DNA of 64,000 nt from an uncultured Gemmatimonadaceae bacterium (GCA_963829055.1 CAWHHI010000005.1:1-64000); one strand, 5' to 3'; counted from the stretch's first letter, positions 1 through 63,574 are shown. The notes: generated by a model from the sequence alone, not told the origin. Numbers and translations: made by a program.

Positions 1-2268
1 AACCGCGGCTGCGCCGCAATGTCCGACACGAGACGCGCGAGCGGCTGCTCGTTCGCGACCGGCATGAGCGGGTCGATCGCGTGGATCTCGCGGCGGACCA
101 CCGGCGCGAGCGCCAGCGGATCTCCGTCCCGCGCGCGAGCAGCCACATGGTGTCCCACGACACCTGCTGGAACGAGAGGTACATCATGGGCTCCGGCTCG
201 TTCTGCAGCAGCTGATCGCGGATGTCGCCGACGACGCCGACCACCGTCCATGTCGGGCCGCCGCCCCCGCCGACCATGATCTGCTGACCCACCGGATCCA
301 CCGGGCCAGATCTGCCGCGCCATCGTTTCCGTGATCACGACCGCCCGCGGCGCCCGCTCGCCATCCGAGTCGGCGATCAACCGTCCCTTCTCGAGCGCGA
401 CGCCAATGGCCGCGAAGTACCCCGGCGTCACCGAGCGCCAGTGCGCCGACAGGAACTCGTCCGCGCTCGCCGGTTGTCGGCCGACCACCGAGAACCGGAT
501 CGCGGTGCTCCCGCCGCTGAACGGCGCGACGTTGGTGAAGCCGACCGCGCGGATCCCCGGCGCTGCCGCGAGCCGCCCTTCCGCCTCGGCATAAAACGCC
601 GCGCGCTTGGCGCGGTCGCGGTAGCGCTCGTTGCCGACCGTCAGCGACGCCGTGAATACGCCATCGGTGCGGAACCCGTCAGTCGACCCCCATCAGCCGC
701 TCGAAGCTCCTCCCCACGAGCCCGGCGCCGACGAGCAGGACGAGCGCGAGAGCGACCGAGGTGACGATGAGGATGCTGCGAAGCCGGCCGGCCGCGGCGA
801 CGCGCCCACCGCTCCGCAGCACGTCGTTCAGGTCTGCGCGCGACGCCTGAAGCGCGGGCGCGATCCCGAACAGGATGCCGGTAGCAACCGAGGCGACGAT
901 GCCGAAGGCGACCACCCGCCAATCGACCGAGAGCTCGTCGAGCCGCGGGATCGCCGTCGCGCCCACGTCGCGCAGCACGGGGACGGCCACGGCCGTCAAC
1001 GCGACGCCTAACGCCGAACCGATCGCCGCCAGCACGAGGCTCTCGGTCAGGAGCTGCCTCACGATCCGGCCGCGCCCTGCGCCCAACGCCGCGCGGACGC
1101 TCATCTCCCGCTGCCGCGCCGTGGCCCGGGCGAGCAGGAGGTTGGCGACGTTCACGCATCCCATGAGGAGCAGGAGCCCCACGGCGACGAGCAGTACTTG
1201 CACACGCGTGCGCAGCTGATCGCCAATGAGCCACTCCTCGAGCGACGTCACGTTGGCGCCCCACTCACGGTTCGTCTCGGGATACTGGCTGGCCAGATCG
1301 CGAGCGACGGACCGCATCTCGTCGAGCGCCTGAGCACGCGTGACGTTAGGCGCCAGGCGGCCGATGGCGCCGAGCCGGCGGTTGCCGCGCGCCGTCTCGC
1401 CGCGCGCGGTCATGGAGGGCGCCAGCGGCATCCACAGCGCCGGGTTGCCGGGGAAGACGAGCTCCGGCGGCATCACGCCGATGATCTCGTACGACGTTCC
1501 GCTGAGGTTCACCGTGCGGCCGACGACGCGCGGATCGGCGCCGAAGCGCGTCTGCCATGCCGCGTTCGATAGCACGACCACGCGCGCGGCCGCGTCCGGC
1601 TTCGCCTCGTCCTCCCTGAAAAACCGCCCCATGAGCGGCCGCGCGCCGAGGAGCGGGAACAACGACGGTGTCGCCGCCATCGCGCTGAGCTCCTCAGGGT
1701 CACCGTCGCCGAGAAGGCTGGCGTTCTCGGCGGCGAAGGCGGCGAGCTGGCTCAGGCTCCGGACGCGCTGCCGCCAGTCGACATAGTCCGGCTCCGAGAT
1801 GCTGAACGTCTCGGTGGTCGGATTCGTCTCGTACAGACGGACGATCCGGCCCGGCTCGTGGTAGGGAAACGGCCGGAGCAGCACGGCGTTCGCGACGCTG
1901 AAGATCGTGGTCGATGCGCCAATGCCCATGGCGAGCGTGAGGAGCGCGACGGCGGTGAAGCCCGGGCTCGAGCGAAGTCCTCGTACGGCGTACCGCAGAT
2001 CGTGACGCAGCTCGGTGAGCCATTCGGCGCGGCGCATGTCCTCGTTCCTCCTCCTGCCCAAGTCGCGGCAGGTTTCCGTGATCTGTTCGACGTCGCCGAA
2101 GCGGGCGAGGGCCGCGGCGCGCGCTTCGTCGGGGGGGATCCCCTGTTCGACGAGCTCGCGGATGCGCATCTCGAGGTGGAAGGCGAGCTCCGAGTCCACC
2201 TCCCGCTCGACCGGGACGTTCCAGAACCGCCACCGGAGCTCGCGTCTGAATCGGCCTAACGACGGCAC
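1..2268 (-). CDS. ADOP-type duplicated orphan ABC permease (MacB/FtsX domains); frameshifted near 680, runs off left edge
   Basis: ORF 679..2268: EVDSELAFHLEM, DLRYAVRGLRSSPGFTAVALLTLAMGIGASTTIFS, LLMGCVNVANLLLARATARQREMSVRAALGAGR; homology continues in another frame (GFRTDGVFTASL...VTPGYFAAIGV) after a 1-nt indel. Confidence 0.9.
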
Positions 2269-2269
2269 G

Positions 2270-2602
2270 TCATCGCCCCTCGAAGAGCACCTTGGAGACG
2301 GCGGTGGTGAAGTGCGTCCACTGCGCGAGCTCCAGCTTGAGCCGGGCGCGCCCGGTGGTCGTTAGGCGGTAGAACTTCACCTCGCGCCCCGTCTCCGACT
2401 TGCCCCATTCAGCCTCGATGAACCCTTTGCGCTCCATGCGGTAGAGCGCGGGGTAGAGCGAGCCCTCACCGATCTCGAGCGCGTCGTCGGTGGTGTCCTG
2501 GATCCATCGCGCGACGCCGTAGCCGTGGCGCGGGCCCCAGGAGAGGGTCTTGAGGATGAGCGTGTCGAGCGTGCCGTGCAGCAGTTCGGTCGGTTCGGCC
2601 AT
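2270..2602 (-). CDS. PadR family transcriptional regulator (acidobacterial type)
   Basis: LLHGTLDTLILKTLSWGPRHGYGVARWI...GSLYPALYRMERKGFIEAEWG; directly upstream of the permease. Confidence 0.95.
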   Translation of the reverse strand: MAEPTELLHGTLDTLILKTLSWGPRHGYGVARWIQDTTDDALEIGEGSLYPALYRMERKGFIEAEWGKSETGREVKFYRLTTTGRARLKLELAQWTHFTTAVSKVLFEGR

Positions 2603-2622
2603 GCGTGCGCTCCAGGCCTTAG

Positions 2623-2671
2623 TACCTCGATCGTCGAGGTATCATAGGATCAGACGCCTCGATAGTCAAGG
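2623..2671 (-). promoter_or_regulatory. Sigma70-like promoter of padR with two palindromic operators
   Basis: Minus strand TTGACT (2669-2664)-N17-TATGAT (2646-2641); inverted repeats TACCTCGA-tcg-TCGAGGTA (2623-2641) and CCTCGA-tag-TCAAGG (2657-2671). Confidence 0.75.
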
Positions 2672-2676
2672 CATCA

Positions 2677-4321
2677 CTACACGATGGCTTCGACGGACCT
2701 CACGCGTTCCCGCAACACGAACTTCTGCACCTTCCCCGTCGACGTCCTCGGCAACGGCCCGAATACGATCGTCTTCGGCACCTTGAATCGCGCGAGGCGC
2801 TCGTAGCAGTGGTCGATGAGCGCATGGTCCGTCACCGACGAGTCAGGCTTGAGCTCGACGAACGCAACCGGCGTTTCTCCCCACTTCTCGTGCGGCTGCG
2901 CCACAACAGCGGCCGCGAACACCGCCGGATGTCGAAACAGCGCCTCCTCCACCTCGAGCGACGAAATGTTCTCGCCGCCGGAGATGATGATGTCCTTCGC
3001 GCGATCCTTGATCTTCATGTAGCCGTCGGCGTGCGTGACGGCGAGGTCGCCGGAATGGAACCAGCCACCCGCGAACGCCTTTGCGGTCGCGGCGGGATTC
3101 TTGAGATACCCTTTCATCACGATGTTCCCGCGGAACATGATCTCGCCCATCGTCTCGCCGTCCGCCGGGACGCGCTCCATCCGCTCCGGATCGAGAACGG
3201 CGGCGTCGCCTTGCAGCACATAGGGCACGCCCTGGCGTCCGTTCCGCAGTGCGTTGTCGTTAGGATCGAGCGCCTCCCACTCCTCCTGTTTCGTGCACGC
3301 CGCGCTCGGCCCATACACTTCAGTGAGGCCGTACGTGTGCGTGAGCTCGAATGTTGATGCGCTCGAGGCCTTCGATCATTGATGATGGAGGCGACGCGCC
3401 GGCGACCATCGCGTGGATCCTGTGCGTGAGCCCAGTGCGCAAATGCTCGGGCGCCGCAAGCAACGAACTGTGCACGACAGGCGCGCCGCAGTAATGCGTG
3501 ACTCCGTGTTCTTTCATCAACCGGAAGATCGTCGCGACGTCGACCTTTCTCAGACAGACGTTCGTGCCCGTCTGCGCCGCCATCGTCCACGGAAAGCACC
3601 AACCATTGCAGTGAAACATCGGCAGCGTCCAGAGATAGACCGGGTACCGCTGCATGTTCCACGCGAGCACGTTCGCCACGGCGTTGAGGTGAGCGCCACG
3701 GTGATGGGACACGACGCCCTTTGGGTCGCCGGTCGTTCCAAATGTGTAGTTCAGCGCAATGGCATTCCATTCGTCGGACGGTTCCTGCCACGCGTATTCC
3801 GGATCCCCTCGGCTCAGGAACGTCTCGTACTCCACGCCTAACAGCGTTCCGTCACCATCGTAGTCCGGATCATCGACACCGATCACGAGCGGGTAGCGAT
3901 CGACCATGCCTAACGCTGACGTGGCGAGCGCGGAGAATTCACGGTCGACGATGAGCACCTTGGCTTCGCCGTGCTCGAGCATGAACGCGATGGCTCGGGC
4001 GTCGAGACGCGTGTTGAGCGTGTTGATCACACCACCCGTCATTGGCACGCCGAAGTGGGCTTCGTACAACTCCGGCGTGTTGGAGAGCAGCGTGGCGACG
4101 GTGTCGCCCACGCCCACGCCGGCTCTCACGAGCGAAGACGCCAGGCGTCGAGCACGTGCGTACGTGTCCGCCCACGAGAAGCGTCGCTCGCCGTGAATCA
4201 CCGCGACGCGATCGGGGCACACTCGCGCGCTCCAGGCGATGAACGTGAGCGGCGTGAGCGCAGCGTAGTTCGCCGGATTCTTATCGAGCCCGACGTCGTA
4301 AGGATTGGGATGCGTGATCAT
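2677..4321 (-). CDS. Acyl-CoA synthetase (AMP-binding), frameshifted near 3320-3345
   Basis: ALNYTFGTTGDPKGV, LPMFHCNGW, GWFHSGDLA, IKDRAKDIIISGGENISSLEVE, LPRTSTGKVQK split over ORFs 3320..4321 and 2677..3318. Confidence 0.9.
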
Positions 4322-4464
4322 ATCAGCCTCGAAGCAATGGTGATAAGCGTTTGACAGTGGAAGCAGGGAGGCAGGGATTGAGATTTGGAAGGGACAGCGC
4401 TGCCGGCGAGCGGAGCATGGAAATCTGGCAATGAGGCCCTATCAACATCTCAGTCGGAATCGCA

Positions 4465-5826
4465 CTAGTTCGCGGACGGAGCAGGCTGCGCGGCCGGGTG
4501 CGAGCGCACGGACTGAAATTCGGTCGTTAGGCGGTGCGGCATGGCTTTGGGAAGCGCGAGCGCACCGACGAAGGACAGCGCACCGGAGATGGCCAGATAC
4601 ACGGCGGGAGCGAGCGTGAAGCCGGTCTTCGACACGAGCCACGCAGCCACCAGCGGGGTGGTCCCACCTAGCAACGCGACACCGAAGTTGTAGGAGATGG
4701 AGAGAACCGTGCATCGCACCCGCCAGGGCGCGAGCTCCGCCATGGTCGCGGCCAGCACACCGGCGGCGGCGGAAACGAGCAGCGCGAGGAACACCTGACC
4801 CACGAAAACGCCAATCCACTGCCCGCCCGCCATCAGCGCCATGAGCGGATACGACAGCACCATGAGCAGCGCGCTCACCACCACGAGCACCGGACGCCGT
4901 CCAACGCGATCGCTCAATGCGCCAGCAGCGAGCACCACACCGAGGCACAACGCCATCGCGACCGTGTTGATCTCGAACGCCGTCTTCGCGGGCACGGCCG
5001 CGACTTGCTTCAGCCACGTGGCCGAGTAGACGAACGTCGTGTAGAACCCGACGCTGAGCCCTGCGACGAGCATCATCAGGTGCAGAATCGTGCGCCAGTG
5101 ATAGCGGAACGATTCGCCGATCGGCGACTTCGCCGGTGGCTGATGCGGAACCTTCTCCACGAAGTTGCGTCGAATGACGATTCCGCCAAGAGCAACGACG
5201 AGGCCGACGATGAACGGAATACGCCAGCCGTACGCCATGACGGCGTTAGGTGACAACATCGTATTCACAATCAGGCCGGCAGCCGAGCCAAGCAGCGTAC
5301 CAGCAAAGCATCCGAACGGGCTCCATGCACCCATCAGCCCGCGCTTCCCCGGCTCGGCACCTTCGACAAGGAACACCGATGACGCCATGTACTCGCCGCC
5401 AACGGCGAGTCCTTGCAGGAGGCGGCACACGAGCAGGAGCACCGGCGCCGTAAGTCCGATCGTTGCCTCGCTTGGCAGCACCCCGATGAAGAAAGACGGA
5501 AGGGCCATGGCAAGGACTGACCACAGCAGCGCCTGCTTGCGACCGAATCGATCGCCAACCCAGCCAAAAAAGGCGCCTCCGATCGGTCGCATGAGGAACC
5601 CGGCCGCGAACGTCCCATAAGCGGCGAGCAACGAAGCCGTGGGATTCCTTGCCGGAAAGAAGTGCGCGCCGATCTGCGCGGCGAAGAACCCGAACAGCGC
5701 GAAGTCGTACCACTCCAGCATGTTGCCGACGACACCGGCGATGACGCCGCGCCGGACGGTGCTTGGGGTCCGGAACTCCTGCGTGACGACACCAGGCGGG
5801 ATGAGCAACGGGGCTGCGGCTGACAT
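4465..5826 (-). CDS. MFS transporter, MHS/ProP-like
   Basis: GNMLEWYDFALFG, GFLMRPIGG, GDRFGRK, RLLQGLAVGGE; about 12 hydrophobic segments. Confidence 0.92.
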   Translation of the reverse strand: MSAAAPLLIPPGVVTQEFRTPSTVRRGVIAGVVGNMLEWYDFALFGFFAAQIGAHFFPARNPTASLLAAYGTFAAGFLMRPIGGAFFGWVGDRFGRKQALLWSVLAMALPSFFIGVLPSEATIGLTAPVLLLVCRLLQGLAVGGEYMASSVFLVEGAEPGKRGLMGAWSPFGCFAGTLLGSAAGLIVNTMLSPNAVMAYGWRIPFIVGLVVALGGIVIRRNFVEKVPHQPPAKSPIGESFRYHWRTILHLMMLVAGLSVGFYTTFVYSATWLKQVAAVPAKTAFEINTVAMALCLGVVLAAGALSDRVGRRPVLVVVSALLMVLSYPLMALMAGGQWIGVFVGQVFLALLVSAAAGVLAATMAELAPWRVRCTVLSISYNFGVALLGGTTPLVAAWLVSKTGFTLAPAVYLAISGALSFVGALALPKAMPHRLTTEFQSVRSHPAAQPAPSAN

Positions 5827-5992
5827 ATGGGATTCCCGTGGGGGTTGTGGTCGATTGGTGCCTTCCTATCTTGGGAGTCGACGTTTGGCGGGAGATCGGC
5901 TCACGCCGGTGTGATCCCGCCGCGTCCCGCCGCACGCGTCGAATGCGCCCCGCCGCGCTTCGCGGCTCGACACTTCCCCGGCGCACCCCGCG

Positions 5993-6565
5993 ATGGCGTC
6001 CGACTCGCCTCGAACCTTGAGCCAGCTGCTCGACGCGTGGGGGCACGGCGATCGCGATGCCCTCGATGCGCTCGTGCCCGAGGTCTACGCGGTTCTGCAT
6101 CAGCAGGCCCGTCGCGCCCTACGCGACCAGCCTGACGGGCACACGCTGCAGCCGACGGCGCTCGTCAACGAGGCGTATGTACGTCTCGCGAATCAGCCCG
6201 GGGCTGGAGCCGAAAGTCGCTCGCACTTTCTGGCTGTCGCGGCGATGGTGATGCGATCGGTCCTGGTCGACCACGCGCGCGCCAGGCAGCGGGCGAAGCG
6301 CGGCGGGAATGCGCGAGCGCTGTCGCTGGGCGCCGCCGACGGAGTGGCCGCAGCCGAGGAGCCATTGGATGTCGTGGCGCTGGACGACGCACTCAATCGC
6401 CTCGCAGCCCAGGATGCGCGCAAGGCACGCGTGGTCGAGCTGCGGTACTTCGTCGGGCTGAGCATCGAGGAGACCGCGAAAGCGCTGGACTCGTCGCCGG
6501 CGACGGTCAAGCGCGAGTGGACCACGGCGCGCGCGTGGCTTCGCCGCGAGCTCACGACCGCCTAG
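5993..6565 (+). CDS. ECF sigma-70 factor (TIGR02999-like, kinase-associated)
   Basis: HTLQPTALVNEAYVRL, HFLAVAAMVMRSVLVDHAR, VVELRYFVGLSIEETA...TVKREWTTARAWL. Confidence 0.93.
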   Translation: MASDSPRTLSQLLDAWGHGDRDALDALVPEVYAVLHQQARRALRDQPDGHTLQPTALVNEAYVRLANQPGAGAESRSHFLAVAAMVMRSVLVDHARARQRAKRGGNARALSLGAADGVAAAEEPLDVVALDDALNRLAAQDARKARVVELRYFVGLSIEETAKALDSSPATVKREWTTARAWLRRELTTA

Positions 6566-6566
6566 T

Positions 6567-6696
6567 GTCATTCCGAGCGAGCGAAGCGAGTCGAGGAATC
6601 GCGATCCTCCCGGTAGAGCGTCCTCTTTCGGGACGCCTGCGATTCCTCATGCGCCCAGAGGGCACCCCGGCGCTTCGCGCCTTCGCTCGGAATGAC
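6567..6696. repeat. REP/MITE-like palindromic element, copy 1
   Basis: Perfect 14-bp terminal IR GTCATTCCGAGCGA (6567-6580)/TCGCTCGGAATGAC (6683-6696); inner IR GAGGAATCGC (6593-6602)/GCGATTCCTC (6639-6648). Confidence 0.85.
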
Positions 6697-9632: not shown

Positions 9633-9678
9633 CCACCGCGCGACCGCCTTGCATCTTCCCCCTAGACTTTCAGGGGAA
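9629..9678 (+). promoter_or_regulatory. Putative promoter/operator of second padR
   Basis: TTGACC (9629)-N17-CATCTT (9652) followed by CCTAGA-ctt-TCAGGG flanked by TTCCC/GGAA; resembles the operator at 2623-2641. Confidence 0.55.
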
Positions 9679-9686
9679 ACTCTAGG

Positions 9687-10051
9687 GTGTCACCGACCGC
9701 CGACCAGCTCGCGCTCGTCAAAGGCACGCTGGACGTGCTCGTCCTCAAGGCACTCTCGTGGGGACCCATGCACGGCTTCGAGATCACGACCTGGCTCGAG
9801 GACAGCTCCGGCGGCGCGCTCGACGTCGACGACAGCGCGCTCTACCACGCCCTTCATCGGATGGAAGAGCGCGGGCTCATTGCCGCCGAGTGGGGCGTCA
9901 CCGAGAACAACCGGCGCGCCCGGTACTACAGCGTGACGTCGGCCGGCCGCGCGCACCTCCGGGCCGAGACCGCGCGATGGCTCCGCTACTCGGAGATGGT
10001 GAGTGGCATTCTCACCGCCGCCTCGCGAACCGCGACCGCACGTCCGCGTGA
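9687..10051 (+). CDS. PadR family transcriptional regulator (3' end disturbed by an indel)
   Basis: LVKGTLDVLVLKALSWGPMHGFEI...ALYHALHRMEERGLIAAEWGVTENNRRARYYSVT; likely true stop TGA 10049-10051 lies in another frame. Confidence 0.9.
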
Positions 10052-10089
10052 CGCGGCGATAAGCCGCGCCGCCCACGCAGAATCCCTCA

Positions 10090-54223: not shown

Positions 54224-54612
54224 CGCCGACCCGTGCGGAAAGTTCGCGTCCTCGTCGCGAGTGGCAATTCGAAACGGGCGCTTGCGGGCAAGAACGCGCG
54301 CACGCTCGCGCGGGACTTGTTAGGCATGATGCAGGAGACGCGGAGCCGCGCGCGGTCTACGTGTCCCTGCGTGATGAGGATGTAGTCGGCACGCCGCACG
54401 TGCGCATCGATCATCGCCGTGTCGTGCCAGGAGCGTCGCGTGTCCCGTTCGCAGTCCGACATGTCGCGCCAGAGCGGCCAGGCGTTCGATGGTCATCATA
54501 TCGTGGTGCCTAACGCGCTGTCTTCAAGGGCTCGGCCTCGAACGTGGCGGGCGGTTCTTTCGGCAACAACCGCGTCAATCAGTTCGACCGGTTGCCGCGA
54601 AGCCGGGAAACT

Positions 54613-54721
54613 CTAGTCCATCGCGCGCGGCTTCCCGTCCCCACGGGCGAGCGAGGTCGCGGCGCTCGTTGCCGGGCGGGTTGCGCGTGTCGATCCTGAG
54701 CAGCGCCTGGAAGTGCTCGAG
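54613..54721 (-). repeat. Internally deleted copy of the M20 peptidase gene
   Basis: 54613-54658 = 59294-59339 (1 mismatch); 54658-54721 = 60562-60625. Confidence 0.9.
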
Positions 54722-57075
54722 AGGGTAGCACGCAGCTGCGACCTCACCGCGCCGGAAATTTCATTCATCTCGCTCAGGATTCGGCCGACGCGCGGGTGCG
54801 CGCGCAGACTCTCGAGCGTCGGATCGTATCGCAGGTACACGAGCGCTGGATGGCGCTCGGCGTACGCGCGGTCGAGCCAATCGAGGGCCCGGGTGGTGTC
54901 GCCGATCAGCGTCCACAGCTTGGCGATGCGGAACGGGTCGGGAGCGCCCTCCGTCTGCCGGAGATCCATGTCGAGCCAACTCCGCCAGAAGCCGCGCATG
55001 CCCGAGGCGACATACCCCTTTCGAAGGGCGTCCACTTCGGCAGCGGTCGCTCCGCGCAGCGTCGCGATCCTGACGTACTCCTCCACAGCCTCCTCGAACC
55101 GGTGTTGCTGCAGATATACCTCTGCGGGGCCAGCGGGCAGGAACGGACCGGAGCCGAGAGCGAACGTGTGCACCGGGTCGAGCTTGAGCGCACGGCGGTA
55201 CTGCATCAATGCGCGATCGAGGTCACCAGCAACGCGGTAGTCGCCGGCGAGCAGGACAACGGTCCGCGCATTCAGGGGGTCCAGCTCGACCGCCCGCTCG
55301 CGTGCGGCGACCGCATCATCGAAGCGGCCCATCGCGCGCATGTAGTTCGCGAGGTGATGGTAGGCGTGCGCGTCATTCGGATTCAGCTCGATCGCGCGGC
55401 GCAGCGCCTGCTCGGCACCCTTCCAGTCCCAATCGAAGAACAACTTGATGATCCCGAGATTCACGTGGGCCTCGCCAAGGGCGGGGTCGAGCTCGAGGGC
55501 GCGGGCCGTGAGGGCGCGAACCTCGGGCGTGCCCTCCCTGGAAGACACGTGTCCGAGCATGATCTGCGGTGCGACGACGCTCGCCTTCGCGGCGTAGGCG
55601 AGCGCAAAGCCGGGCTCCCGTGCGATGGCGCGATCGAAGAGATCCTTCGCCTGCCGCAGGGCATCCGCCGTCAGGCTGTTTCGAAGGTAGAGGCCGCGCA
55701 GGTAGAGGTCGTAGGCCTGCAGATCGGGCAACGGCCGAGACGCCGGCGCCGCGCCGGCGCGGGCGAGTCGCAGAGCGAGCGCGCCGGCGATCGCGGTCGC
55801 GATCTCGTCCTGCACGGCGATGATGTCCTCCAGCCCACGATCGTATTCGTCCGTCCAGAGGTGATAGCCCGTCGCGGCGTCGATCAGCTGTGCCGTGATC
55901 CGAAGTCGATTGCCGTCCTTTCGTACGCTGCCCTCGAGCACAGCCGCGACGCCCAGCGTATCGCCGATCGCGCGGACATCCAGCGTACCGTCGCGCAGCG
56001 CGAACGAGGATGTGCGAGCGGCCACGCGTAGCCCCTCGATGCGGCTGAGCGATGCGATGATCTGTTCGGTCAGTCCATCGCCGAAGTATCTGTTCTCCGG
56101 ATCGGGACTCATGTTCACGAACGGCAATACGCCCACGGATGACGCGACAGGCGGCGCGGCAAGGCGTGGAGCGGCGATGTTGCGGACGCCGAGGATCGCG
56201 AGCACGAACACGAGCGCGGCGGCCGTCGCGTAACGGACTGTTGCCGGCTTCCGAGCCGTCGGCACGTCTAGGGTCGCCGCAGGAACGAGATCCGAAGCGG
56301 CACTCTGATGTTGCGGCGAGCTGGCTGGGCGAACGACGGCGGGCTGCGTGGCCGTGCGCGCAGGCGGTTCGAGACGCAGACGCTCCGCGAACGTCGTGAT
56401 CTCGGGGTCCGGCTCCGCCTCGAACTCCTCTCGCAGCAGCGCGGCGTGAACGCGCGCATGTCTGAGCGCGCCGGCGCGGTCGCCCGCCGCCTCGAGCGCG
56501 CGCATCAGCCGCAACACCACCCGGCCGTTGTAGGGATCATGAGCGGCTAGCCTCCGCCACCAGCTCACGGCAAGGCCGAACTCGGCGCGCGCTTCACGGG
56601 CTTCCGCCAGTGACTCCAGTGCCGCCGCGTAACGCTGCCCAAGGCGCGCGCGCTCCGCGTCGAGCCAATGATCGAATTCCGCGCTATCCGACAGGTGAAA
56701 GCCGTCCAGCAGCGGACCCGCAAACAGTTCGACCGCGGGCTCGAGCTGTCCTTCGTCGAGCAGCCGCTCGAACGTCCCGGCGTCACTCACCATCGCGTCC
56801 GGATTCAGCGCGAGCTCATCGCCGAACGAGCGGACCACGTCCTCGCCCAGGGCGCTGCGCACGATGTAGAGATCGTCGGACAGCTGGTGGCGTGCGCGGT
56901 CGGTGGGGCTCTCCGGCCAGAGCACCGCGATGAGCTTGTCGCGCGTGACGAGGCGCGAGCGCGCGAGAGCCAGGAATGCCAGCAGCGCGAGGCGGCGGCC
57001 TTGTGCTGCTCGTCCGGTAACCGGCCCGTCGGACCGCTCGATCGAGGCGGCACCGAAGAGCTTGAGCGTCAACAC
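54613..57075 (-). CDS. SARP/BTAD regulator with TM, TolB-like domain and TPRs
   Basis: VLTLKLFG..TRDKLIAVLWPE..GPLLDGF..WLDAER..LAAHDPY; TM; SVGVLPFVN..YFGDGLTE; TPRs (WDWKGAE). Confidence 0.9.
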   Translation of the reverse strand: MLTLKLFGAASIERSDGPVTGRAAQGRRLALLAFLALARSRLVTRDKLIAVLWPESPTDRARHQLSDDLYIVRSALGEDVVRSFGDELALNPDAMVSDAGTFERLLDEGQLEPAVELFAGPLLDGFHLSDSAEFDHWLDAERARLGQRYAAALESLAEAREARAEFGLAVSWWRRLAAHDPYNGRVVLRLMRALEAAGDRAGALRHARVHAALLREEFEAEPDPEITTFAERLRLEPPARTATQPAVVRPASSPQHQSAASDLVPAATLDVPTARKPATVRYATAAALVFVLAILGVRNIAAPRLAAPPVASSVGVLPFVNMSPDPENRYFGDGLTEQIIASLSRIEGLRVAARTSSFALRDGTLDVRAIGDTLGVAAVLEGSVRKDGNRLRITAQLIDAATGYHLWTDEYDRGLEDIIAVQDEIATAIAGALALRLARAGAAPASRPLPDLQAYDLYLRGLYLRNSLTADALRQAKDLFDRAIAREPGFALAYAAKASVVAPQIMLGHVSSREGTPEVRALTARALELDPALGEAHVNLGIIKLFFDWDWKGAEQALRRAIELNPNDAHAYHHLANYMRAMGRFDDAVAARERAVELDPLNARTVVLLAGDYRVAGDLDRALMQYRRALKLDPVHTFALGSGPFLPAGPAEVYLQQHRFEEAVEEYVRIATLRGATAAEVDALRKGYVASGMRGFWRSWLDMDLRQTEGAPDPFRIAKLWTLIGDTTRALDWLDRAYAERHPALVYLRYDPTLESLRAHPRVGRILSEMNEISGAVRSQLRATLSSTSRRCSGSTRATRPATSAATSLARGDGKPRAMD

Positions 57076-57088
57076 GATTGGCGTCGAG

Positions 57089-57127
57089 AGAGAGAAAAAC
57101 GAGAGCGGCGCGAGAATGCCCCGAGAG
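57089..57127. promoter_or_regulatory. 11-bp periodic direct repeats between BTAD regulator and CHRD gene
   Basis: AGAGAG 57089, CGAGAG 57100, CGAGAA 57111, CGAGAG 57122. Confidence 0.55.
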
Positions 57128-57252
57128 CGCCGGTTACCATATGCGCGCGGCACGGGCCGGAGCAAGCTCCGGGCGCGCACTGCTCGCGGCGGGAGACTCG
57201 CGCGGAGCTCCCTGCCATCACACCACCGACACCCCCACCGAGGCACACTTTC

Positions 57253-57762
57253 ATGGTATTCCGTTCCTTGAGGCTCGCCGCATCGCTCACGGTTATCGCC
57301 GCCGGCCTCGCCGCCTGCCGTCAGGAGACGGCGATTCCCGTCGCCGTGCAGACCGTCCGACTCGCCCTGATCGCGGGCGCCGAGCATGGCGGCGCGCCGT
57401 TCTCGACTCCGATGACGCAGGAGGTCACCAGCACGCCACCGTACGCGGGTGACCCCAATGGCACCGGCACGGCTCTCGTCACCGTGAACCACGGCCAGCG
57501 TGAGATCTGCTGGGAGGTATCAGTGTCCGACATCACCCTGCCGGCGACGGCCTCGCACATTCACAAGGCGGCTCCTGGTATCCGCGGCCCGATTGTCGTC
57601 GGCCTCTCGGCCCCGGACGCGGCCGGAAGGTCGGTCGGCTGTGCTTCGGGCCTGGACCAGGCTCTCCTGAGGGACATCCTCACGAACACCGCAGCTTATT
57701 ACGTGAACGTTCACACGACCGATTACCCACCGGGGGCCGTTCGCGGCCAGCTTGGGCACTAG
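57253..57762 (+). CDS. CHRD-domain lipoprotein
   Basis: AAGLAA-C; QEV..GDPNGTGTA..ICW..ASHIHKA..GPIVV..YYVNVHTTDYPPGAVRGQL. Confidence 0.9.
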   Translation: MVFRSLRLAASLTVIAAGLAACRQETAIPVAVQTVRLALIAGAEHGGAPFSTPMTQEVTSTPPYAGDPNGTGTALVTVNHGQREICWEVSVSDITLPATASHIHKAAPGIRGPIVVGLSAPDAAGRSVGCASGLDQALLRDILTNTAAYYVNVHTTDYPPGAVRGQLGH

Positions 57763-57807
57763 CTCCGCTGACTGACGCCGCGCAGCGAATTCGAGCGGCG
57801 GCGCGCT

Positions 57808-57867
57808 TGTCGTTCCGAGCGGAGAGCCGAAAGCCCGCGGGCACCCGGCCGCTCGCTCGGAATGACA
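57808..57867. repeat. REP/MITE-like palindromic element, copy 3 (short)
   Basis: TGTCGTTCCGAGCG (57808-57821)/CGCTCGGAATGACA (57854-57867), one G-T mismatch. Confidence 0.75.
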
Positions 57868-57959
57868 GGCGTTGCGGTCTGACCTGGCCGGACGGCTCGT
57901 AACTGATCGGGCAGTCGCGATCCGCGAGATGGAACTCGCGCACCTTCGCGACGGACCTC

Positions 57960-58210
57960 GCCGCCGTGAACCATCATCTGATGCGAGCCGAGCGTGTGCT
58001 CATGCTGCGTGAGGGACTGAAGAACCGACCGTGGTTCAAGCACTCGCTCTACGCGCCGGGGTTCTACACCGGCTACGGCGTGAAGACGATGCCGGGGATT
58101 CGCGAGGCGATCGAGCAGGGAGAGTGGAGCAACGTGAACGGCGAGATCGCGCGCGTTGCGGAGGCGCTCAACGCGAAGGCCGCGCTGTTGAAGGAGGCAG
58201 CTCGTTGCTC
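57960..58210 (+). pseudogene. C-terminal (TfR-dimer-like) remnant of a glutamate carboxypeptidase II-like M28 peptidase
   Basis: NHHLMRAERVL..EGLKNRPWFKHSLYAPGFYTGYGVKTMPGIREAIE. Confidence 0.7.
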
Positions 58211-58265
58211 GAATCGTGGTGAGACCGACGTGAGTGACGGGTGCGAAATCGGTACCAGGCGCCGG

Positions 58266-58724
58266 TTAACGAACCAGCCGGGGATCAAACCCGAACGGCT
58301 GCACTGATTCGACCACGAGCTGCGGGAACTTTACGTGCTGCGGATTGATCAGGACGTTGTAGCTCCCGTCCACGATCGCGCTTGGCACCGTCAGCACGAG
58401 TGCGCCACCCAATCGGACCCACGCATCTCCGATCGCCTGGACTTCGGGTGGGACTGGAAACGCGCGCCAGCTCCTGGGGAGTTCTGATGCGGGCAGCTCG
58501 TCGACGAGGGGGTCGGGAACGTGCGCGCGGATGAGTGAGTAGCCCGGCAGGGCCGCACCCGCGGTCATGTGGACGAGTACCTCCAGCACCGCGAGCGCGG
58601 AGTTGCTCGAGGCGTAGGCGACGCGCGTCCCGGGGGAGTTCCACCGACCTCCGTGGACGCGGGCTCCCTCGCCGTCGAACGCGGTGGCGGCATACCTGGT
58701 CTTTACCAACCGCCAGAGCTGCAT
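58266..58724 (-). CDS. RES domain toxin (NAD+ phosphorylase family)
   Basis: WRL..DGEGA..GGRWNSPG..Y..LAVLEVLVH..VPSAIV..NVLINPQH. Confidence 0.92.
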   Translation of the reverse strand: MQLWRLVKTRYAATAFDGEGARVHGGRWNSPGTRVAYASSNSALAVLEVLVHMTAGAALPGYSLIRAHVPDPLVDELPASELPRSWRAFPVPPEVQAIGDAWVRLGGALVLTVPSAIVDGSYNVLINPQHVKFPQLVVESVQPFGFDPRLVR

Positions 58725-58727
58725 CGC

Positions 58728-59231
58728 CTAAGTTGGAATCCCGTACTCCAACCGGCCGATGAGATGTTCCACCTCGATTGCGCCGACGTCCGTGGACGCG
58801 AAGTCAAGCGGCGTTCGTCCGCCTAACGCCGTCACCGGGCTCGTCAGCCACCCGCGTGCATCCTCGACGTGCCCCTCGAACAGCTCGATGGCTCGGGCGA
58901 CTACACGGGAAAGACGGGCGAGGCGATCAGACTCGTCAGGCTCGAGCCGCCCGCTCTCCTTTCTTCTCGCGAGGGTACGTTCGGGGATTTCCGCCGCCTC
59001 GGCCAGCACGCGATACGGAAGCTCCGTGTTCCGCTGTAAGCGCTCGAAAGCCGAGTACGCGAACCCGCGTCGGATCTGCTCCATGACGTGGAGCGCGTCA
59101 TACCGGCGCAACCCGAACAGGGCGACGTAGTAGTGTCCATCGCGCCTGCCGGACCTGACCCGGTTCCAGAGCTCCGCGATGTCGGGAGCGATCTTTTCGG
59201 CGGATTGTGCCGCGGATTCTCGCGCTGCCAT
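58728..59231 (-). CDS. Xre/MbcA/ParS-type antitoxin
   Basis: IPERTLARRK..RLEPDESDRLARL..ARGWL..ALGGRTPL..IGRLEYG; 3 nt upstream of the RES gene. Confidence 0.92.
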   Translation of the reverse strand: MAARESAAQSAEKIAPDIAELWNRVRSGRRDGHYYVALFGLRRYDALHVMEQIRRGFAYSAFERLQRNTELPYRVLAEAAEIPERTLARRKESGRLEPDESDRLARLSRVVARAIELFEGHVEDARGWLTSPVTALGGRTPLDFASTDVGAIEVEHLIGRLEYGIPT

Positions 59232-59267
59232 ATGGCATAATGTATGTCGCCAAACGGCAACGAGCAA
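59226..59267 (-). promoter_or_regulatory. Leaderless promoter and operators of the Xre-RES operon
   Basis: TTGCTC-N17-TACATT-N7-ATG; palindrome TGCCATATGGCA (59226-59237) over the start codon plus degenerate copy CGCCAAACGGCA (59248-59259). Confidence 0.7.
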
Positions 59268-59293
59268 CCATTCTGGAGTCGACGGCGCTGCGC

Positions 59294-60742
59294 CTAGTTC
59301 ATCGCGCGCGGCTTCCCGTCCCCACGGGCGAGCGAGGTCACGGCGTCCCAGTTGAACCGCACGAAGCGATGCAGCTCGCTCTCGAGGATGCGCTCCTGAT
59401 CGCTGTGCGCGCCGAAGCCGCGCGGCCCATCCTCGATGTCGATGGCCGGACCGATGCCGAAGCACTGGATGCCCTTCGCGCGCGTGAACGACATGTCGGT
59501 CGCGCCGGTGCCCATGACCGGGATCGCCGGCACGTTGTACACGCGGCGCACCGATGCCTCGAGCGCCTTGAACGCCTCGGAGTCGAGTCGACTCTCGACG
59601 CCCGTTGGACGGCCGAATGACGGCGACACGCGGACTTCGACCGCCGGGTCGTTGATGACCTTCCTCATCTCCTCGGCGAACCGGTCCGCGTCCTCGTCGG
59701 GGAGCATGCGGACGTCGAGCGTCGCGCGCGCTTCCGACGGGATGACGTTCGAGCGGTACCCGCCGGCGATGACGTTAGGCGACGCCGACGTGCGCAGCAT
59801 CGACGAGTGCCGAGGCTCGTGCTCGTAGAGCCAGTCGTCGGCGGCGCGGCGGACGGCGGAATCCGCGGAGAGCACACCGCGATAATGTTGTGCGACGTCG
59901 GGCGGCGAGATCGCCGCGAGCCGCTCGAAGTACGCGCGCGTCGTCTCGTTGAGCCGGATCTCGGGACGCCACGCGCCGACGCGCGCGACCGCGCCCGCGA
60001 GATGCACGATGGCGTTGGACGCGAGCGGCACCGACCCGTGTCCGGCGATGCCGCGGGCGACGAGCTCGATGCCGCGGCCGCGCTTCTCCAGCGTCTGGAT
60101 GGTCGAGTACTTCACCTGGCCACCGATGCGCGTCGCCCCGCCGCCTTCGGCCAGGCAATACTCGGCCTCGATCTCGGGCAGGTGTTGCTCGGTGACGAAG
60201 CCGATCCCGACGCGCGTGTTCCCCTCCTCTCCCGACTCGGCGAGGAAGATCACGTCGCGGTCGAGCGGGACGTTGAGCCGCTTGAGCAGCAGCATCGTCA
60301 TGAGGCCGGCGGTGACGTTGTCCTTGTCGTCGACGGCGCCGCGCCCGTAGACGTAGCCGCTGTCCCGCGTGGCGGCGAACGGCGGATGCGTCCACTTCGT
60401 GGTGTCCACCGTGACGACGTCGGTGTGCCCCATGATGAGGAGCGGGCGCTTGCGACCGGTCCCCTTGAGGCGAGCGATGACGTTCGAGCGGCTGGAGTCG
60501 AGCGCGACGATCTGCGCGGGGATGCCCTCACGGTCGAACACGGCCTTGAGGTACTCGGCGGCGCGGCGCTCGTTGCCGGGCGGGTTGCGCGTGTCGATCC
60601 TGAGCAGCGCCTGGAAGTGCTCGAGCGTCTCGCGCTCGACGTCGGCCCAGTTGGGTTGGCGCGGAGACTGTTGTGCGCGAGCAGGGGTGGCGGCTGCGAG
60701 CGCGAGGACGATCGACGCAGTGGCGAGGGATATGTGTCTCAT
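59294..60742 (-). CDS. M20/M25/M40 family metallopeptidase, signal peptide
   Basis: MGHTDVV, YGRGAVDDK, GEE, GHGS, GATD, AHSDQERI. Confidence 0.93.
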   Translation of the reverse strand: MRHISLATASIVLALAAATPARAQQSPRQPNWADVERETLEHFQALLRIDTRNPPGNERRAAEYLKAVFDREGIPAQIVALDSSRSNVIARLKGTGRKRPLLIMGHTDVVTVDTTKWTHPPFAATRDSGYVYGRGAVDDKDNVTAGLMTMLLLKRLNVPLDRDVIFLAESGEEGNTRVGIGFVTEQHLPEIEAEYCLAEGGGATRIGGQVKYSTIQTLEKRGRGIELVARGIAGHGSVPLASNAIVHLAGAVARVGAWRPEIRLNETTRAYFERLAAISPPDVAQHYRGVLSADSAVRRAADDWLYEHEPRHSSMLRTSASPNVIAGGYRSNVIPSEARATLDVRMLPDEDADRFAEEMRKVINDPAVEVRVSPSFGRPTGVESRLDSEAFKALEASVRRVYNVPAIPVMGTGATDMSFTRAKGIQCFGIGPAIDIEDGPRGFGAHSDQERILESELHRFVRFNWDAVTSLARGDGKPRAMN

Positions 60743-60858: not shown

Positions 60859-61317
60859 TCAGTACTTCACGTCGAACCTGCCCGAGGTGACCTGTTGTTC
60901 CGCCGGCGACGCACCCTCGTGTGCCAGCGTGAACTGGAACGTGCCTGCCAGGTGGCCCGGCGCGGCGGTCGTGAGCGTGATACTGCCGGCTCCGCCCTGG
61001 GTCCTGCTCGCCGCCCACGTTTGCGAGCCGATGATGAGCCCGGCGGCGATTGGCGTTGTAGACCCAACCGTCTGCGTCCCTAGGCCCTGACTGGCCGGGA
61101 TGACGAGCGTGAGCGTAGCAGTGGCATTCGTCCCCCTAACGATGATCAGAGAGGGCGGGGCAGTGTCGGTCGCGATCGACATCGCGCTCCACGCCGCACC
61201 GGCGATACGGGCGGACATGCCGCCGGCATCTGACTTCGCTGGACCGGTCGTGTCGCCGCCGCACGCGGCAAGGAGGACGAGCGCCGCTGCCGCGACGATG
61301 GTGGACGAGTGTCGCAT
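60859..61317 (-). CDS. Small lipoprotein
   Basis: LVLLAA-C GGDTTGP; MSARIAGAAW..GTFQF..VTSGRFDVKY. Confidence 0.8.
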   Translation of the reverse strand: MRHSSTIVAAAALVLLAACGGDTTGPAKSDAGGMSARIAGAAWSAMSIATDTAPPSLIIVRGTNATATLTLVIPASQGLGTQTVGSTTPIAAGLIIGSQTWAASRTQGGAGSITLTTAAPGHLAGTFQFTLAHEGASPAEQQVTSGRFDVKY

Positions 61318-61443
61318 GATTGCCTCTGGGGTGAGAAGACGCGGGTCGTGTCGTTCTCCCGCGTTCGCGTAGGTACTGGGCGGAACCCCGTCGAGCGCAC
61401 AGCGGTCACTCGGTGTTGCGCAGTGCGTGGAGCTGAGTGCCTC

Positions 61444-63574
61444 TCAGGGAGAGAGTCCCAATCTGCGGAGCAGCTTTGCCCATCGCGGTGAGGAGTGCAG
61501 GACGTCGAATGCTATCGTCGCCTTGATGCTGTGAAGGAATGCGTCACGCTCGGTGTACGCTCGCTCGAGCCACTGGAACGCCGTGTCCGCATCGCGCAGG
61601 CCCGCGTATGCCATCGCGAGACCAAACGACGGTAGGTGATCCTGGTCGGTCGCACGAAGGATCCCGTCGAGGATGGCCCGCGCGTCGTGCGAGAGACCGG
61701 TGACCGCGAGGGCGTATGCCAGACGAGTCGCGCCTCGCGCGCCGCCAAGGGCGGAGACGACTCGGAACGCCGCGACTGCTTCGTCACGGCGATCGAGCCG
61801 CAAGTACGCGTGCCCGAGATGCTCGTGCGCGAGGGCGAGTCGCGGATTCAGCTCCACGGCCGCCTCGAGTAATGGGACTGCCATCTCCGCGCGACCAGCG
61901 CAGAGGTGTAAGCGTCCGAGATTCATGCTCGCCGATGGTGCCAGTGGGTCGACCTTGCGAGCTTGCTCGAGGACCGGCCGCGCCTCGTCGAAGCGTCCCT
62001 GGTACATGAGATAGAGGCCGTAGCGCTGATGCGCGAGGCCGTACCCGGGGTCGAGCGCAATGGCGCGCTCGAACTCCCGCTCGGCCGCCGGCCAGTTCCA
62101 GTCGAAGCTGAAGAGGATGCTTGCGAGCGACGTGTGGGCTTCCGCGAGCGTGCTGTCGAGGGCGAGCGCCCGCGCGACCGCTTCGCGGACCTGCGACACG
62201 TGGTAGTCCTGTGGCCCGTCACCGAGGACCGCTAGCAGCAGGTGTGCATCGGCCAGCCCTGCGTGGGCCCGCGCATAGTTGGCGTCTCGCGTGATCGCCT
62301 GCTCGAAGTAGGCGACCGAGCGGCGCAGATCCTCCTCCGACACGCGATTCTGGAAGTAGCGTCCCTTGAGGTAGAGCTCGTGCGCGACGAGGTCCTCGGT
62401 TGCCGCGCGCTTCTGTGTCGAGACAGTGGGGCCGAGCCTAACGCGCAGAGCATTGGCGATCGCGTGTGCGATTTCCTCCTGCACGGCGAAGACATCCTTC
62501 GTGTCGCGATCGTAAATCTCGGACCAGATGACAGCGCCGTCGCTGGCGCGGATGAGGTGCGCGCCGATCTTGAGCCGCTCTCCGGAGCGTCGGACGCTCC
62601 CCTCGAGCACGTGGTCGACGCGAAGCGACTCAGCGATGGCTCGAACATCCAGCCCCTTGCCCTTGAACGAGAACGAGGACGTTCGCCCGGTGATGATGAG
62701 ACCTGGCAGCTTGCCGATGGTGCCGATCAGCTCGTCCGTCAAACCGTCGCTGAAATGCTCGTCCGAGAGGTCGCCGCCAGTGTTGGCGAAGGGGAGCACC
62801 GCGAGAGTCGCACCCTGCTGTGTCGTCCGCGGTGCGTCCGCTGGTTGCGCGCGGCCGCCACTCTCTCGTCGTCGGACAAGCTCGTTCAACGCCTCCGCGA
62901 ATACAGGATCTGGCTCGATGCCCAGCTCGTCGCGGACGCGGTCGTGAAAACCGCGCGCATGCTGAATGGCGGCTGCGTAGTCACCGGACGCGTCAAGCGC
63001 GCGGAGCAGGCCGACCGCAACCCGCTCGTTGAGCGGCTCTGCCGTCGCGAGTCGTTGCCACGACTCGACTCGCGGTGCGCGCGTCACCGCTCCGATCCGC
63101 GCGCACGGCGAGCGCTTCGAGCGTTTGAGCGAAATCGCGCGCGAGCGAAGTCCGCTCGTCAGACGCCCAGCGCTCGAACCCGTCGGCGCCACGCACATGG
63201 AAGCCGTCGAGAAATGGCCCGCTATAGAGCTTCACCGCCCGCTCGTGGTCGCCATGCCTAACGGCATTGCGGAAGTCGTCGACGTCACTCGACACGTAAC
63301 GCGTGTCGAGCCGCAGATCGGCGGAGGCCAGCAGCAAGTCGGGATGTAACTGTCGGCGAGCGGAATGGACCAGCTGCTTGAGCGACGTCCGGGCGCGCTC
63401 GTCGTCGCGGTCTGGCCAGAGAAGCGCGGTGACGGATTCCCGGGTGAGGCCGCGCGGACCGGCGCCAGCGAGCAAGGCCAGCAAGGAGAGCACCTTGCGC
63501 TGGCCCGACAGCTCGTCGAGCCGCGCGCCACCACGCTCGATGGAGCAACCGCCGAAGGTCCGGATGTAGAGCAT
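61444..63574 (-). CDS. SARP/BTAD + TolB-like + TPR regulator (no TM); frameshift near 63070
   Basis: MLYIRTFG..TRESVTALLWPD..YSGPFLDGF (62993..63574); LAVLPFAN..HFSDGLTDE, TPRs (61444..63198). Confidence 0.88.

What the first reader, a model, noticed from the sequence alone, without database searches (positions are those of the whole stretch)
1007..63263. Highly iterated non-palindromic motif (G)CCTAACG, about 1 copy per kb: candidate new DNA-uptake or HIP1-like signal
Seen: I count by eye 66 exact CCTAACG/CGTTAGG copies (e.g. 1007, 1344, 2255, 2360, 3258, 3909, 4525, 5244, 6951, 7773, 9152, 9297 ... 61135, 62437, 63257), 38 on + and 28 on -; 51 extend to GCCTAACG. A base-composition estimate at ~69% GC gives only ~7 heptamers and ~2 octamers. 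Most copies are inside intact genes, in all six frames, through codons that are otherwise rare here: GCG TTA GGC (ALG, including kinase D.YSLG/ALG at 34202 and 40309), CCT AAC (PN), CTA ACG (PadR YRLT at 2360), GTT AGG (VR at 18487, 25222, 30037, 62437) and stop codons. Different synonymous positions converge on the same word, so a single systematic miscall cannot explain it. Known: Neisseria/Pasteurellaceae uptake sequences and cyanobacterial HIP1 reach similar densities and also accumulate in coding DNA; Chi/KOPS are strongly strand-biased, which this is not. Inference: a genome-wide protein-recognised motif (self-DNA uptake, methylation-directed repair drive, or nucleoid organisation) that I do not recognise from this lineage.
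Basis: partly seen in the sequence, partly recalled or inferred. Interest (0 to 1): 0.88.

Follow-up and report, generated by a model that had tools for sequence, protein, structure and literature searches.

The report
Genome-wide GCCTAACG word in Gemmatimonadaceae
This soil bacterium, scattered relatives and their phages write one eight-letter DNA word about once per kilobase, rarely twice within 300 bases, against their own codon habits; it behaves like the self-recognition words that steer DNA uptake in Neisseria and Haemophilus, but matches the recombination core of integron cassettes.

Summary
CCTAACG occurs 6,391 times in 7.78 Mb (248 expected) and 12-fold above synonymous shuffles. It supplies 59% of TTA codons, stays in place across species, and shows no replication-strand bias.

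New here:
- Copies avoid each other within about 300 bp in any orientation.
- A lost site tends to be replaced nearby.
- Silent-site GC is raised within about 100 bp of a copy.
- Unrelated phages carry the word at 1-3.3 per kb, including a prophage tied to this lineage.

The word (consensus RCCTAACR) equals the attC core of this order's integrons. It is enriched in 13 of 301 phylum genomes, patchily. It is not among the methylated motifs published for Gemmatirosa kalamazoonensis, which carries it.

Best reading (about 0.5): a DNA-uptake sequence spread by molecular drive through short conversion tracts. A stand-alone FimT pilin, more basic in word-rich genomes, is a candidate receptor. Main rival (about 0.3): an intracellular double-stranded-DNA reader giving a local benefit that phages exploit.

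Preferential uptake was not testable here, so membership of the uptake-sequence class is unproven. I found no report in print; earlier unchecked scan notes saw the same word.

The parts
1007..63263 (+). 38 copies of CCTAACG on + (starts 1007, 2255, 3909, 9152, 9297, 10287, 11059, 12797, 14117, 14930, 16482, 17932, 18443, 18487, 22834, 23535, 24338, 25025, 25222, 27041, 30037, 31146, 32801, 38435, 41385, 43360, 43738, 43834, 48822, 49408, 49525, 49804, 54219, 54509, 58822, 61135, 62437, 63257)
1344..59779 (-). 28 copies of CCTAACG on - (lowest coordinates 1344, 2360, 3258, 4525, 5244, 6951, 7773, 12145, 19353, 21633, 22010, 23977, 24184, 26901, 28544, 28686, 30611, 34202, 34487, 35935, 39046, 40309, 44578, 50378, 51327, 51543, 52231, 59773)
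34202..34208 (-). Example of the commonest coding frame: TCG TTA GGC (S-L-G), using the rare TTA codon
   Evidence: 1,466 of 2,475 TTA codons in 5,275 called genes lie in the word
43738..43744 (+). Example of the CCT AAC G (P-N-x) frame
   Evidence: 1,067 of 1,734 P-N-[VADEG] opportunities are written as the word
54219..54225 (+). Example of the word supplying a TAA stop codon
   Evidence: 222 of 680 TAA stops lie in the word
4525..5250 (-). Two copies (4525, 5244) covered by an independent contig with no differing letter
   Evidence: record 16 (4440-5432, 0 other letters)

Best explanation
RCCTAACR (read YGTTAGGY on the other strand) is most likely a DNA-uptake sequence. Proposed steps: (1) A type IV pilus receptor binds double-stranded DNA carrying the word better than other DNA. 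This is inferred; the candidate is the stand-alone FimT pilin ending in G-R-x-R. (2) Such fragments enter through the ComEA/ComEC route and recombine (genes shown, activity inferred). (3) Alleles that create the word are imported preferentially and spread by molecular drive wherever coding allows (outcome shown, cause inferred). (4) One copy is enough for a fragment or conversion tract of a few hundred bases, so a second copy within about 300 bp gains little, and repeated GC-biased conversion leaves a GC halo of about 100 bp (patterns shown, cause inferred). (5) Prophages are converted along with the host chromosome and reach host-like density. Lineages in which the bias weakens lose the word, because it needs disfavoured codons.
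For: Density 0.82 per kb on both strands, four coding frames plus two stop frames, 3,697 observed vs 282-312 in synonymous shuffles. Positional conservation 50% vs 23%. Lower density in low-GC3 genes (0.35-0.44 vs 0.91 per kb) and 1 copy in 8.4 kb around one 16S gene. Spacing is under-dispersed: g(r) 0.22-0.28 below 75 bp, about 0.95 at 300-500 bp. Tandem, convergent and divergent pairs behave alike, which implies non-polar double-strand recognition. Leu-Gly opportunities are filled in 4% of cases within 50 bp of another copy and in 41% at 600-1,000 bp. Local compensation in orthologues: 23 vs 14.5 expected near unshared sites, 4 vs 11.2 near shared ones. GC at fourfold sites is +1.2 to +1.5 points within 45 bp and fades by 100-130 bp; it is symmetric, absent at unfilled opportunities and control words, and seen again in relatives. 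ComEC in 5 of 5, ComM in 60 of 61 and FimT in 54 of 59 genomes tested, plus a pilus locus and DprA-like and ComEA-like genes in G000. FimT fold confirmed (pLDDT 92.5; best match FimU 4ipu, E 1e-5). FimT head net charge: median +11 in 7 word-rich genomes vs +6.5 in 10 word-poor ones; PilV and operon FimU heads do not differ. Temperate phages accumulate uptake sequences to host level in Pasteurellaceae (PMC6776037, passages), as seen here for prophage G325: 1.07 per kb vs 1.0 in its host flank.
Against: No uptake experiment exists, and no gene tested is confined to word-rich genomes. The FimT charge contrast rests on four lineages, was noticed after the fact and is not corrected for kinship. Mid-density genomes are no more basic than poor ones (4-9), no residue separates the groups (permutation p 0.35 on 16 of the rows), and word-rich FimTs do not form a clade. 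Inverted pairs do not serve as terminators here (4 convergent pairs within 25 bp vs about 39 expected), unlike DUS/USS. No dialects were seen in 40-117 kb samples of four word-poor genomes. A 300-bp reach is shorter than the 0.6-1.7 kb conversion fragments reported for Neisseria (PMC2397512, passages). Two phage records exceed every host sampled (2.3 and 3.3 per kb, the latter evenly tiled, CV 0.43), which drive in lysogens does not obviously predict. The second 16S region is not depleted (8 copies in 8 kb).
Confidence: 0.5

Rival explanations
1. An intracellular protein binds the word on double-stranded DNA and benefits the surrounding 100-150 bp on each side (protection from a nuclease, silencer or deaminase, or local recombinational repair). 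The host gains weakly per site; phages gain strongly and mimic it, as phages do with Chi.
For: At least ten unrelated phage-like records carry the word dispersed through structural genes, with the host's variant spectrum and a deficit of pairs at 50-200 bp. G322 has a site every 95-530 bp, while 79 related loci hold 5 copies in 811 kb. Related prophages in word-poor hosts lack it (1 in 10 kb, 1 in 40 kb). Chi over-representation in phages is documented (PMC3784561, passages). Exclusion and GC halo fit a local intracellular effect equally well.
Against: Most host DNA lies more than 150 bp from a site and long gaps are not selectively filled (hazard roughly flat beyond 500 bp), so protection cannot be essential. 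Overall silent-site divergence is not lower near the word (+1.5 +/- 0.9 points at 9-40 bp, about 0 beyond; sites partly saturated at 0.42), which argues against a general antimutator. Phage carriage is also expected under uptake drive (PMC6776037). No candidate protein was found.
Confidence: 0.3
2. The integron integrase (or a derived tyrosine-recombinase domain) is the reader: the word is an isolated attC/attI R box, and integrase binding or abortive strand exchange creates or favours it.
For: attC sites begin with GCCTAACG and mostly end TGTTAGGC in G027. In the named G. kalamazoonensis plasmid 1 array, 15 of 38 attC begin GCCTAACG and 5 ACCTAACG, and most end CGTTAG. G000 has an integrase gene with three such attC beside it. 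A conserved reader would explain why separate lineages use the same word.
Against: An integrase match is present in 22 of 29 enriched or intermediate genomes and 22 of 31 poor ones. attC variants GTCTAACG (9 of 38) and GGCTAACG (5 of 38) are not enriched genome-wide (24 and 58 copies, O/E 0.9 and 2.0). There is no partner box in the flanks. Reported genomic attG targets are GWT plus a CRGM motif, not this word (bioRxiv 10.1101/2022.09.11.507474, passages). Divergent and tandem pairs are as depleted as attC-like convergent ones.
Confidence: 0.08
3. HIP1-like: a methylase marks the word, and methylation-directed repair or methylation-dependent uptake enriches it.
For: Density and coding placement resemble HIP1 (PMC13756078, abstract and section 14). 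CCTAAC resembles non-palindromic Type IIG/BREX target shapes (recalled, not tested). 5-methylcytosine is poorly seen by early SMRT chemistry (recalled).
Against: Not a palindrome. Not among the three methylated motifs of G. kalamazoonensis, whose plasmid 2 carries 29 dispersed copies in 50 kb. The D12 methylase is present in 3 of 5 tested genomes, including a poor one and missing from two rich ones. The conserved Eco57I-like methylase is in 59 of 60 genomes regardless of density. No C5 catalytic motif was found by regex in G000 (no profile search).
Confidence: 0.04
4. A polar chromosome signal (Chi, KOPS, primase site).
For: An over-represented octamer that phages share.
Against: 1,139 vs 1,118 copies on G-rich vs C-rich strands; no switch at the dif site found at the skew maximum of C16. 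Opposite-orientation pairs exclude each other, which a polar signal would not cause.
Confidence: 0.02
5. Sequencing artefact or codon/peptide bias.
For: The assembly has frameshifts and apparently chimeric contig ends.
Against: Confirmed in independent contigs, in orthologues, in all 6 congeneric genomes and in a named finished plasmid record; 12-fold above codon-preserving shuffles.
Confidence: 0.01

Closest known systems
DNA uptake sequences: DUS of Neisseriaceae (receptor ComP) and USS of Pasteurellaceae (receptor predicted to be the FimT-like PpdA/ComN, PMC12616744)
   Same: About 1 copy per kb, non-palindromic, both strands, in-frame in genes with peptide bias, conserved at silent sites, scarce in atypical genes, more evenly spaced than random, taken up by temperate phages; competence genes present.
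   Different: Different phylum and word; 8 bp with no extended flank; no terminator pairs; no dialects seen, with the same word in three families; strong exclusion limited to about 300 bp; identical to the attC core; preferential uptake not shown.
HIP1 (GCGATCGC) of cyanobacteria
   Same: Octamer at about 1 per kb in coding DNA, conserved in place, patchy across a lineage, proposed uptake role (PMC13756078).
   Different: HIP1 is palindromic and methylated; this word is neither palindromic nor among reported methylated motifs.
Integron attC R'' / R' core (RYYYAAC / GTTRRRY)
   Same: Letter-for-letter the commonest R'' and R' of attC sites in this order.
   Different: Genomic copies are single, lack L boxes and hairpin partners, sit inside core genes, and only a subset of attC core variants is enriched.
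Chi (RecBCD/AddAB) and KOPS
   Same: Over-represented octamer; Chi is also accumulated by phages (PMC3784561).
   Different: No strand polarity, far stronger enrichment (12-25 fold vs about 2.3), and mutual exclusion between opposite orientations.

Membership tests
DUS/USS uptake sequences | DNA carrying the word is taken up preferentially | not testable with these tools
   Needs an uptake assay; no report found.
DUS/USS uptake sequences | About 1 per kb, both strands, far above codon-preserving expectation | tested here: met
   0.82 per kb; 3,697 vs 282-312.
DUS/USS uptake sequences | Conserved in place across species, scarce in recently acquired DNA and rRNA | tested here: met
   143 of 288 vs 23%; 0.35-0.44 per kb in low-GC3 genes; one 16S region depleted, the other not.
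DUS/USS uptake sequences | Spacing more even than random | tested here: met
   149 neighbours under 100 bp vs 509 expected; g(r); repeated in samples of G004, G005 and G014.
DUS/USS uptake sequences | Competence machinery present | tested here: met
   ComEC, ComM, pilus locus, DprA-like, ComEA-like and FimT genes; also present in word-poor genomes. Several G000 copies are frameshifted in this assembly.
DUS/USS uptake sequences | Sequence-specific pilin receptor co-occurring with the word | tested here: inconclusive
   FimT in 54 of 59 genomes; more basic in 7 rich than in 10 poor genomes; no diagnostic residue or clade.
DUS/USS uptake sequences | Inverted pairs used as transcription terminators | tested here: not met
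   Close inverted pairs are depleted in G000; one hairpin pair seen in phage G324.
DUS/USS uptake sequences | Accumulation in temperate phages of the host | tested here: met
   Prophage G325, whose tRNA-Pro attachment site matches G000 (91% over 161 bp; 46-bp repeat), has 74 copies in 68.9 kb.
HIP1 | Palindromic sequence | tested here: not met
   GCCTAACG is not self-complementary (sequence).
HIP1 | Site methylated by a cognate methylase | tested here: not met
   Absent from the published methylome of a carrier species; no methylase tracks it. 5mC not excluded.
Chi/KOPS | Polarity along replichores | tested here: not met
   1,139 vs 1,118.
Integron attC site | R''-L''-L'-R' hairpin flanking a cassette | tested here: not met
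   True attC exist beside the integrase gene and at a few other places, but the dispersed copies are single with featureless flanks.
Integron attC site | Core sequence RYYYAAC/GTTRRRY | tested here: met

The most novel reading that the evidence does not exclude
Several Gemmatimonadales lineages have a DNA-uptake receptor tuned to the integron attC core, so that they preferentially import gene-cassette DNA. The thousands of genomic and phage copies are then the by-product of drive by that receptor through short (about 300 bp) conversion tracts. This would be a third, independently evolved uptake-sequence system, the first outside Proteobacteria, and the first tied to integrons. Transformation is known to feed cassettes to chromosomal integrons (PMC12614218, abstract only).
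Probability: 0.2. Interest if true: 0.95.

Novelty: new variant of a known kind. Interest (0 to 1): 0.8.

Why it matters
Sequence-specific DNA uptake is established in only two proteobacterial families. A third system in an abundant soil phylum, gained or lost repeatedly with the same word, would make the origin of uptake bias and the drive-versus-selection question testable by comparison, and a cultured type strain carries the word. Either way the word is a practical marker for assigning phages to these hosts and for spotting foreign or chimeric DNA in their assemblies.

Tried and rejected
Determinant hunt by presence/absence; none separated word-rich from word-poor genomes:
- Integron integrase.
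- ComEC and HhH/ComEA (5 genomes each).
- D12 methylase (5 genomes).
- Conserved Eco57I-like methylase.
- PilW-like pilin (37 of 40; too divergent even within the genus).
- ComM.
- GspH/FimU family (44 of 53).

Other ideas tested:
- Xer half-site: the dif site found at C16:560,797 does not contain the word.
- Hidden attC arrays as the source of the count: only a handful of the terminally paired candidates shown look like attC, and samples from mid-density genomes show dispersed copies. G166 is an exception whose copies were not where I sampled.
- Helical periodicity in spacing: none at 10-11 bp.
- Alternative dialects in word-poor genomes: none in the samples read.
- General antimutator effect: not seen, low power.

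Searches that led nowhere:
- Terminase_6N in G000: no match.
- The 21-kb element of G. kalamazoonensis is not in the collections.
- Named hosts for the phages: none for the G325 tail protein; only a 42% match in a Gemmobacter assembly for the G322 protein. The hosts of G322 and G323 rest on prophage homologues in two Gemmatimonadaceae genomes and are not proven.
- The first six-copy-tolerant phage scan returned mostly background.

Dropped as null artefacts: the apparent depletion of one-mismatch words under the synonymous shuffle, because the shuffle spreads TTA codons. The masked-Markov ratios are inflated and used only for ranking.

Read laying listed only 40 of about 1,000 variant rows, so absence from that table was not used as evidence.


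Full report
OBSERVATION. The 66 copies, strands, coordinates and 51 octamers are as stated; shuffles give 2.8. The window is contig C5 of a 7.78-Mb, 86%-complete assembly. The word is the most over-represented 7- and 8-mer of the genome: 6,391 vs 248 and 5,004 vs 102 under a second-order Markov model, on all 20 contigs. It is not a miscall: contigs from other runs match three window copies exactly, and orthologous DNA of three other assemblies keeps it at 143 of 288 sites, against 23% of all 7-mers and 6-36% for control words.

ANATOMY. The consensus is (G>A>C)C(C>A)TAAC(G>A), with a strict core and no flank beyond codon periodicity. In 5,275 genes called with my own gene finder there are 3,697 copies against 282-312 in synonymous shuffles. 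They use four coding frames and supply 1,466 of 2,475 TTA codons, 222 of 680 TAA stops and 169 of 1,392 TAG stops. In samples of four word-poor genomes TTA is 27 of 5,301 leucines. Peptide effects are modest: ALG 1.21 vs GLA 0.94, PN 1.39 vs NP 1.24. Density is 0.35-0.44 per kb in low-GC3 genes and 0.91 in typical ones. There is no replichore bias (1,139 vs 1,118) although a dif site and skew switch were located.

SPACING. Pair correlation is 0.22-0.28 below 75 bp, 0.55 at 150-200 bp and about 0.95 at 300-500 bp. The variants ACCTAACG, CCTAACA and GCATAACG are excluded by the main word, while near-neighbours such as CCTGACG are not. Tandem, convergent and divergent pairs behave alike. Occupancy of synonymous opportunities rises with distance to the next copy, from 4% to 41% (Leu-Gly) and from 18% to 73% (Pro-Asn). 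Long gaps are not preferentially filled. Between species, a site present in only one genome tends to have a site of the other genome within 100 bp (23 vs 14.5 expected), whereas shared sites repel new ones (4 vs 11.2) (small counts). Inference: one copy serves a few hundred bases of double-stranded DNA without polarity.

GC HALO. Within genes, GC at fourfold sites is 1.2-1.5 points higher within 45 bp of a copy and back to baseline by 100-130 bp. The effect is on both sides, and is absent at control words and unfilled opportunities. Pooled relatives repeat it (+0.6 to +0.9 within 160 bp). Silent divergence overall is not reduced; C/G differences rise slightly and strong/weak differences fall slightly (near saturation). 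This fits local GC-biased gene conversion better than a general antimutator, but does not say what starts it.

DISTRIBUTION. All 6 congeneric genomes have 0.5-0.9 per kb and G014 has 1.8 (41 genomes). In a phylum sample, 13 of 301 genomes, G000 included, reach 0.1 octamers per kb or more. All lie in two families of the order, and 0 of the 103 genomes outside the order do; two genomes of a third family are intermediate by the 7-mer count. These tallies include four unpublished genomes on which no individual claim rests. The trait is patchy: G241 and G298 are rich while congeneric G294 is poor, and on a single-gene tree rich, intermediate and poor genomes interleave. At one orthologous locus of up to 10 kb, the eight poor genomes have 0 copies and the seven rich ones 2-12.

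ATTC IDENTITY. In word-poor G027 the few clustered copies are the R'' ends of attC sites in cassette arrays. A named G. kalamazoonensis plasmid carries 38 attC starting GCCTAACG (15), GTCTAACG (9), ACCTAACG (5), GGCTAACG (5) or other variants (4). Its second plasmid has 29 dispersed copies in 50 kb. G000 has an integrase gene with three attC. The match was noticed after the fact and could be chance; I put that at roughly one in five. Integrase presence does not track the word (22 of 29 vs 22 of 31), and two common attC variants are not enriched genome-wide.

PHAGES. Whole-record counts for five picked records were 26 in 7.8 kb, 39 in 17.0, 43 in 41.1, 87 in 82.1 and 36 in 28.6 kb, against 1-10 for the reversed word. 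These and further loci encode terminases, portals, capsids, tails or integrases. G325 is a prophage whose tRNA-Pro attachment site matches G000 and whose density equals its host flank. G322 and G323 have homologues in prophages of two word-poor Gemmatimonadaceae genomes, where the word is nearly absent, and 79 loci related to G322 hold 5 copies in 811 kb. G322 is tiled every 95-530 bp (CV 0.43, 0 of 2,000 random placements as even). The search selected for carriers, so it cannot say what share of these hosts' phages carry the word.

MACHINERY. G. kalamazoonensis methylates RGATCY, ATGCAC and CCAGN7TCA only (PMC3974934, whole text), and no methylase tracks the word. Competence genes are general in the order. 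G000 C8:164,923-165,331 encodes a stand-alone pilin, frameshifted in this assembly and intact in relatives, ending S-R-x-G-R-x-R. It folds like FimU/FimT. The G-[R/K]-x-[R/K] end is the DNA-binding motif of FimT in diderms (PMC12040237, passages), and the USS receptor is predicted, not shown, to be a FimT-like pilin (PMC12616744, passages). Its head is more basic in 7 rich genomes (+8 to +12) than in 10 poor ones (+1 to +9), while 9 intermediate ones are not (+4 to +9). The uncorrected p is 0.002 on four independent rich lineages. Other minor pilins show no such shift, but the conserved methylase is also slightly more basic in most rich genomes. This is a lead only.

MECHANISM AND COMPARISON. 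Uptake-sequence drive predicts the density, the frame use, the conservation, the scarcity in foreign genes, the even spacing (PMC7811141, PMC2397512, PMC2817400, passages) and the carriage by temperate phages (PMC6776037, passages). It does not obviously predict the missing terminator pairs, the short reach or the two phages denser than any host sampled. An intracellular reader explains those phages well but has no candidate protein and must tolerate most host DNA lying outside its reach. I weigh them 0.5 and 0.3. The word works like a DUS/USS; membership is unproven because preferential uptake could not be tested and one typical feature (terminator pairs) is not met. It is not HIP1, Chi or KOPS by the features tested.

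NOVELTY. Searches of the held library found no description. One search listed 30 of 1,452 papers containing the string, and none of those titles concern it; some searches were seen as listings only. Most subscription journals are not covered, and supplements were not read. Earlier unchecked notes of this scan report the same word and the attC match in other genomes; they are not independent support.

Noticed in passing
G000 C6:5,440-55,038 and C11:1-42,000 (loci L119, L120): Almost no copies of the word; the genes look like housekeeping genes of other taxa by eye (not classified with a tool). Probably chimeric contig ends.
   Followed up: partly
L115:1552-6412 (G000 C8:73,551-78,414): A 1,000-1,100-residue Eco57I/MmeI-like adenine methylase followed by an SF2 helicase was found in 59 of 60 genomes of the order, nearly always as one copy; it looks like a core DISARM-like pair (label recalled).
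   Followed up: partly
L525:19,717-19,753 (phage record G325:39,717-39,753): Four copies of the word in tandem at a 10-bp period; G324 has pairs 12-16 bp apart and one perfect hairpin made of two copies.
   Followed up: no
L050:436-26,200 (NZ_CP007129.1, 830-857 kb): An integron array of at least 38 cassettes on a G. kalamazoonensis plasmid that is unannotated in the collection.
   Followed up: partly
L006-L008 (G027 C95, C80, C43): Large cassette arrays with a homogeneous attC family in a word-poor genome.
   Followed up: partly
L121 (G000 C16:560,797): A dif-like site at the cumulative GC-skew maximum marks the terminus; word density is lower (about 0.5 per kb) near it and near dnaA on C3.
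   Followed up: partly
L051-L056 (G294): A repeated AGCAGAAAGCAG-type word, 20-30 copies in 117 kb; probably a local repeat, not examined.
   Followed up: no
L094-L096, L134 (G166): The genome has 1,100 octamers but the 70 kb sampled hold only 4 heptamers, so its copies are unevenly placed.
   Followed up: no
window 49297-50383: An amine-oxidase-like gene (by eye) is interrupted by a TGA near 49,885; pseudogene or long-read error, as with other frameshifts in this assembly.
   Followed up: no
window 50360-50395 and 52215-52250: A duplicated element of about 25 bp containing the word at two gene ends.
   Followed up: no
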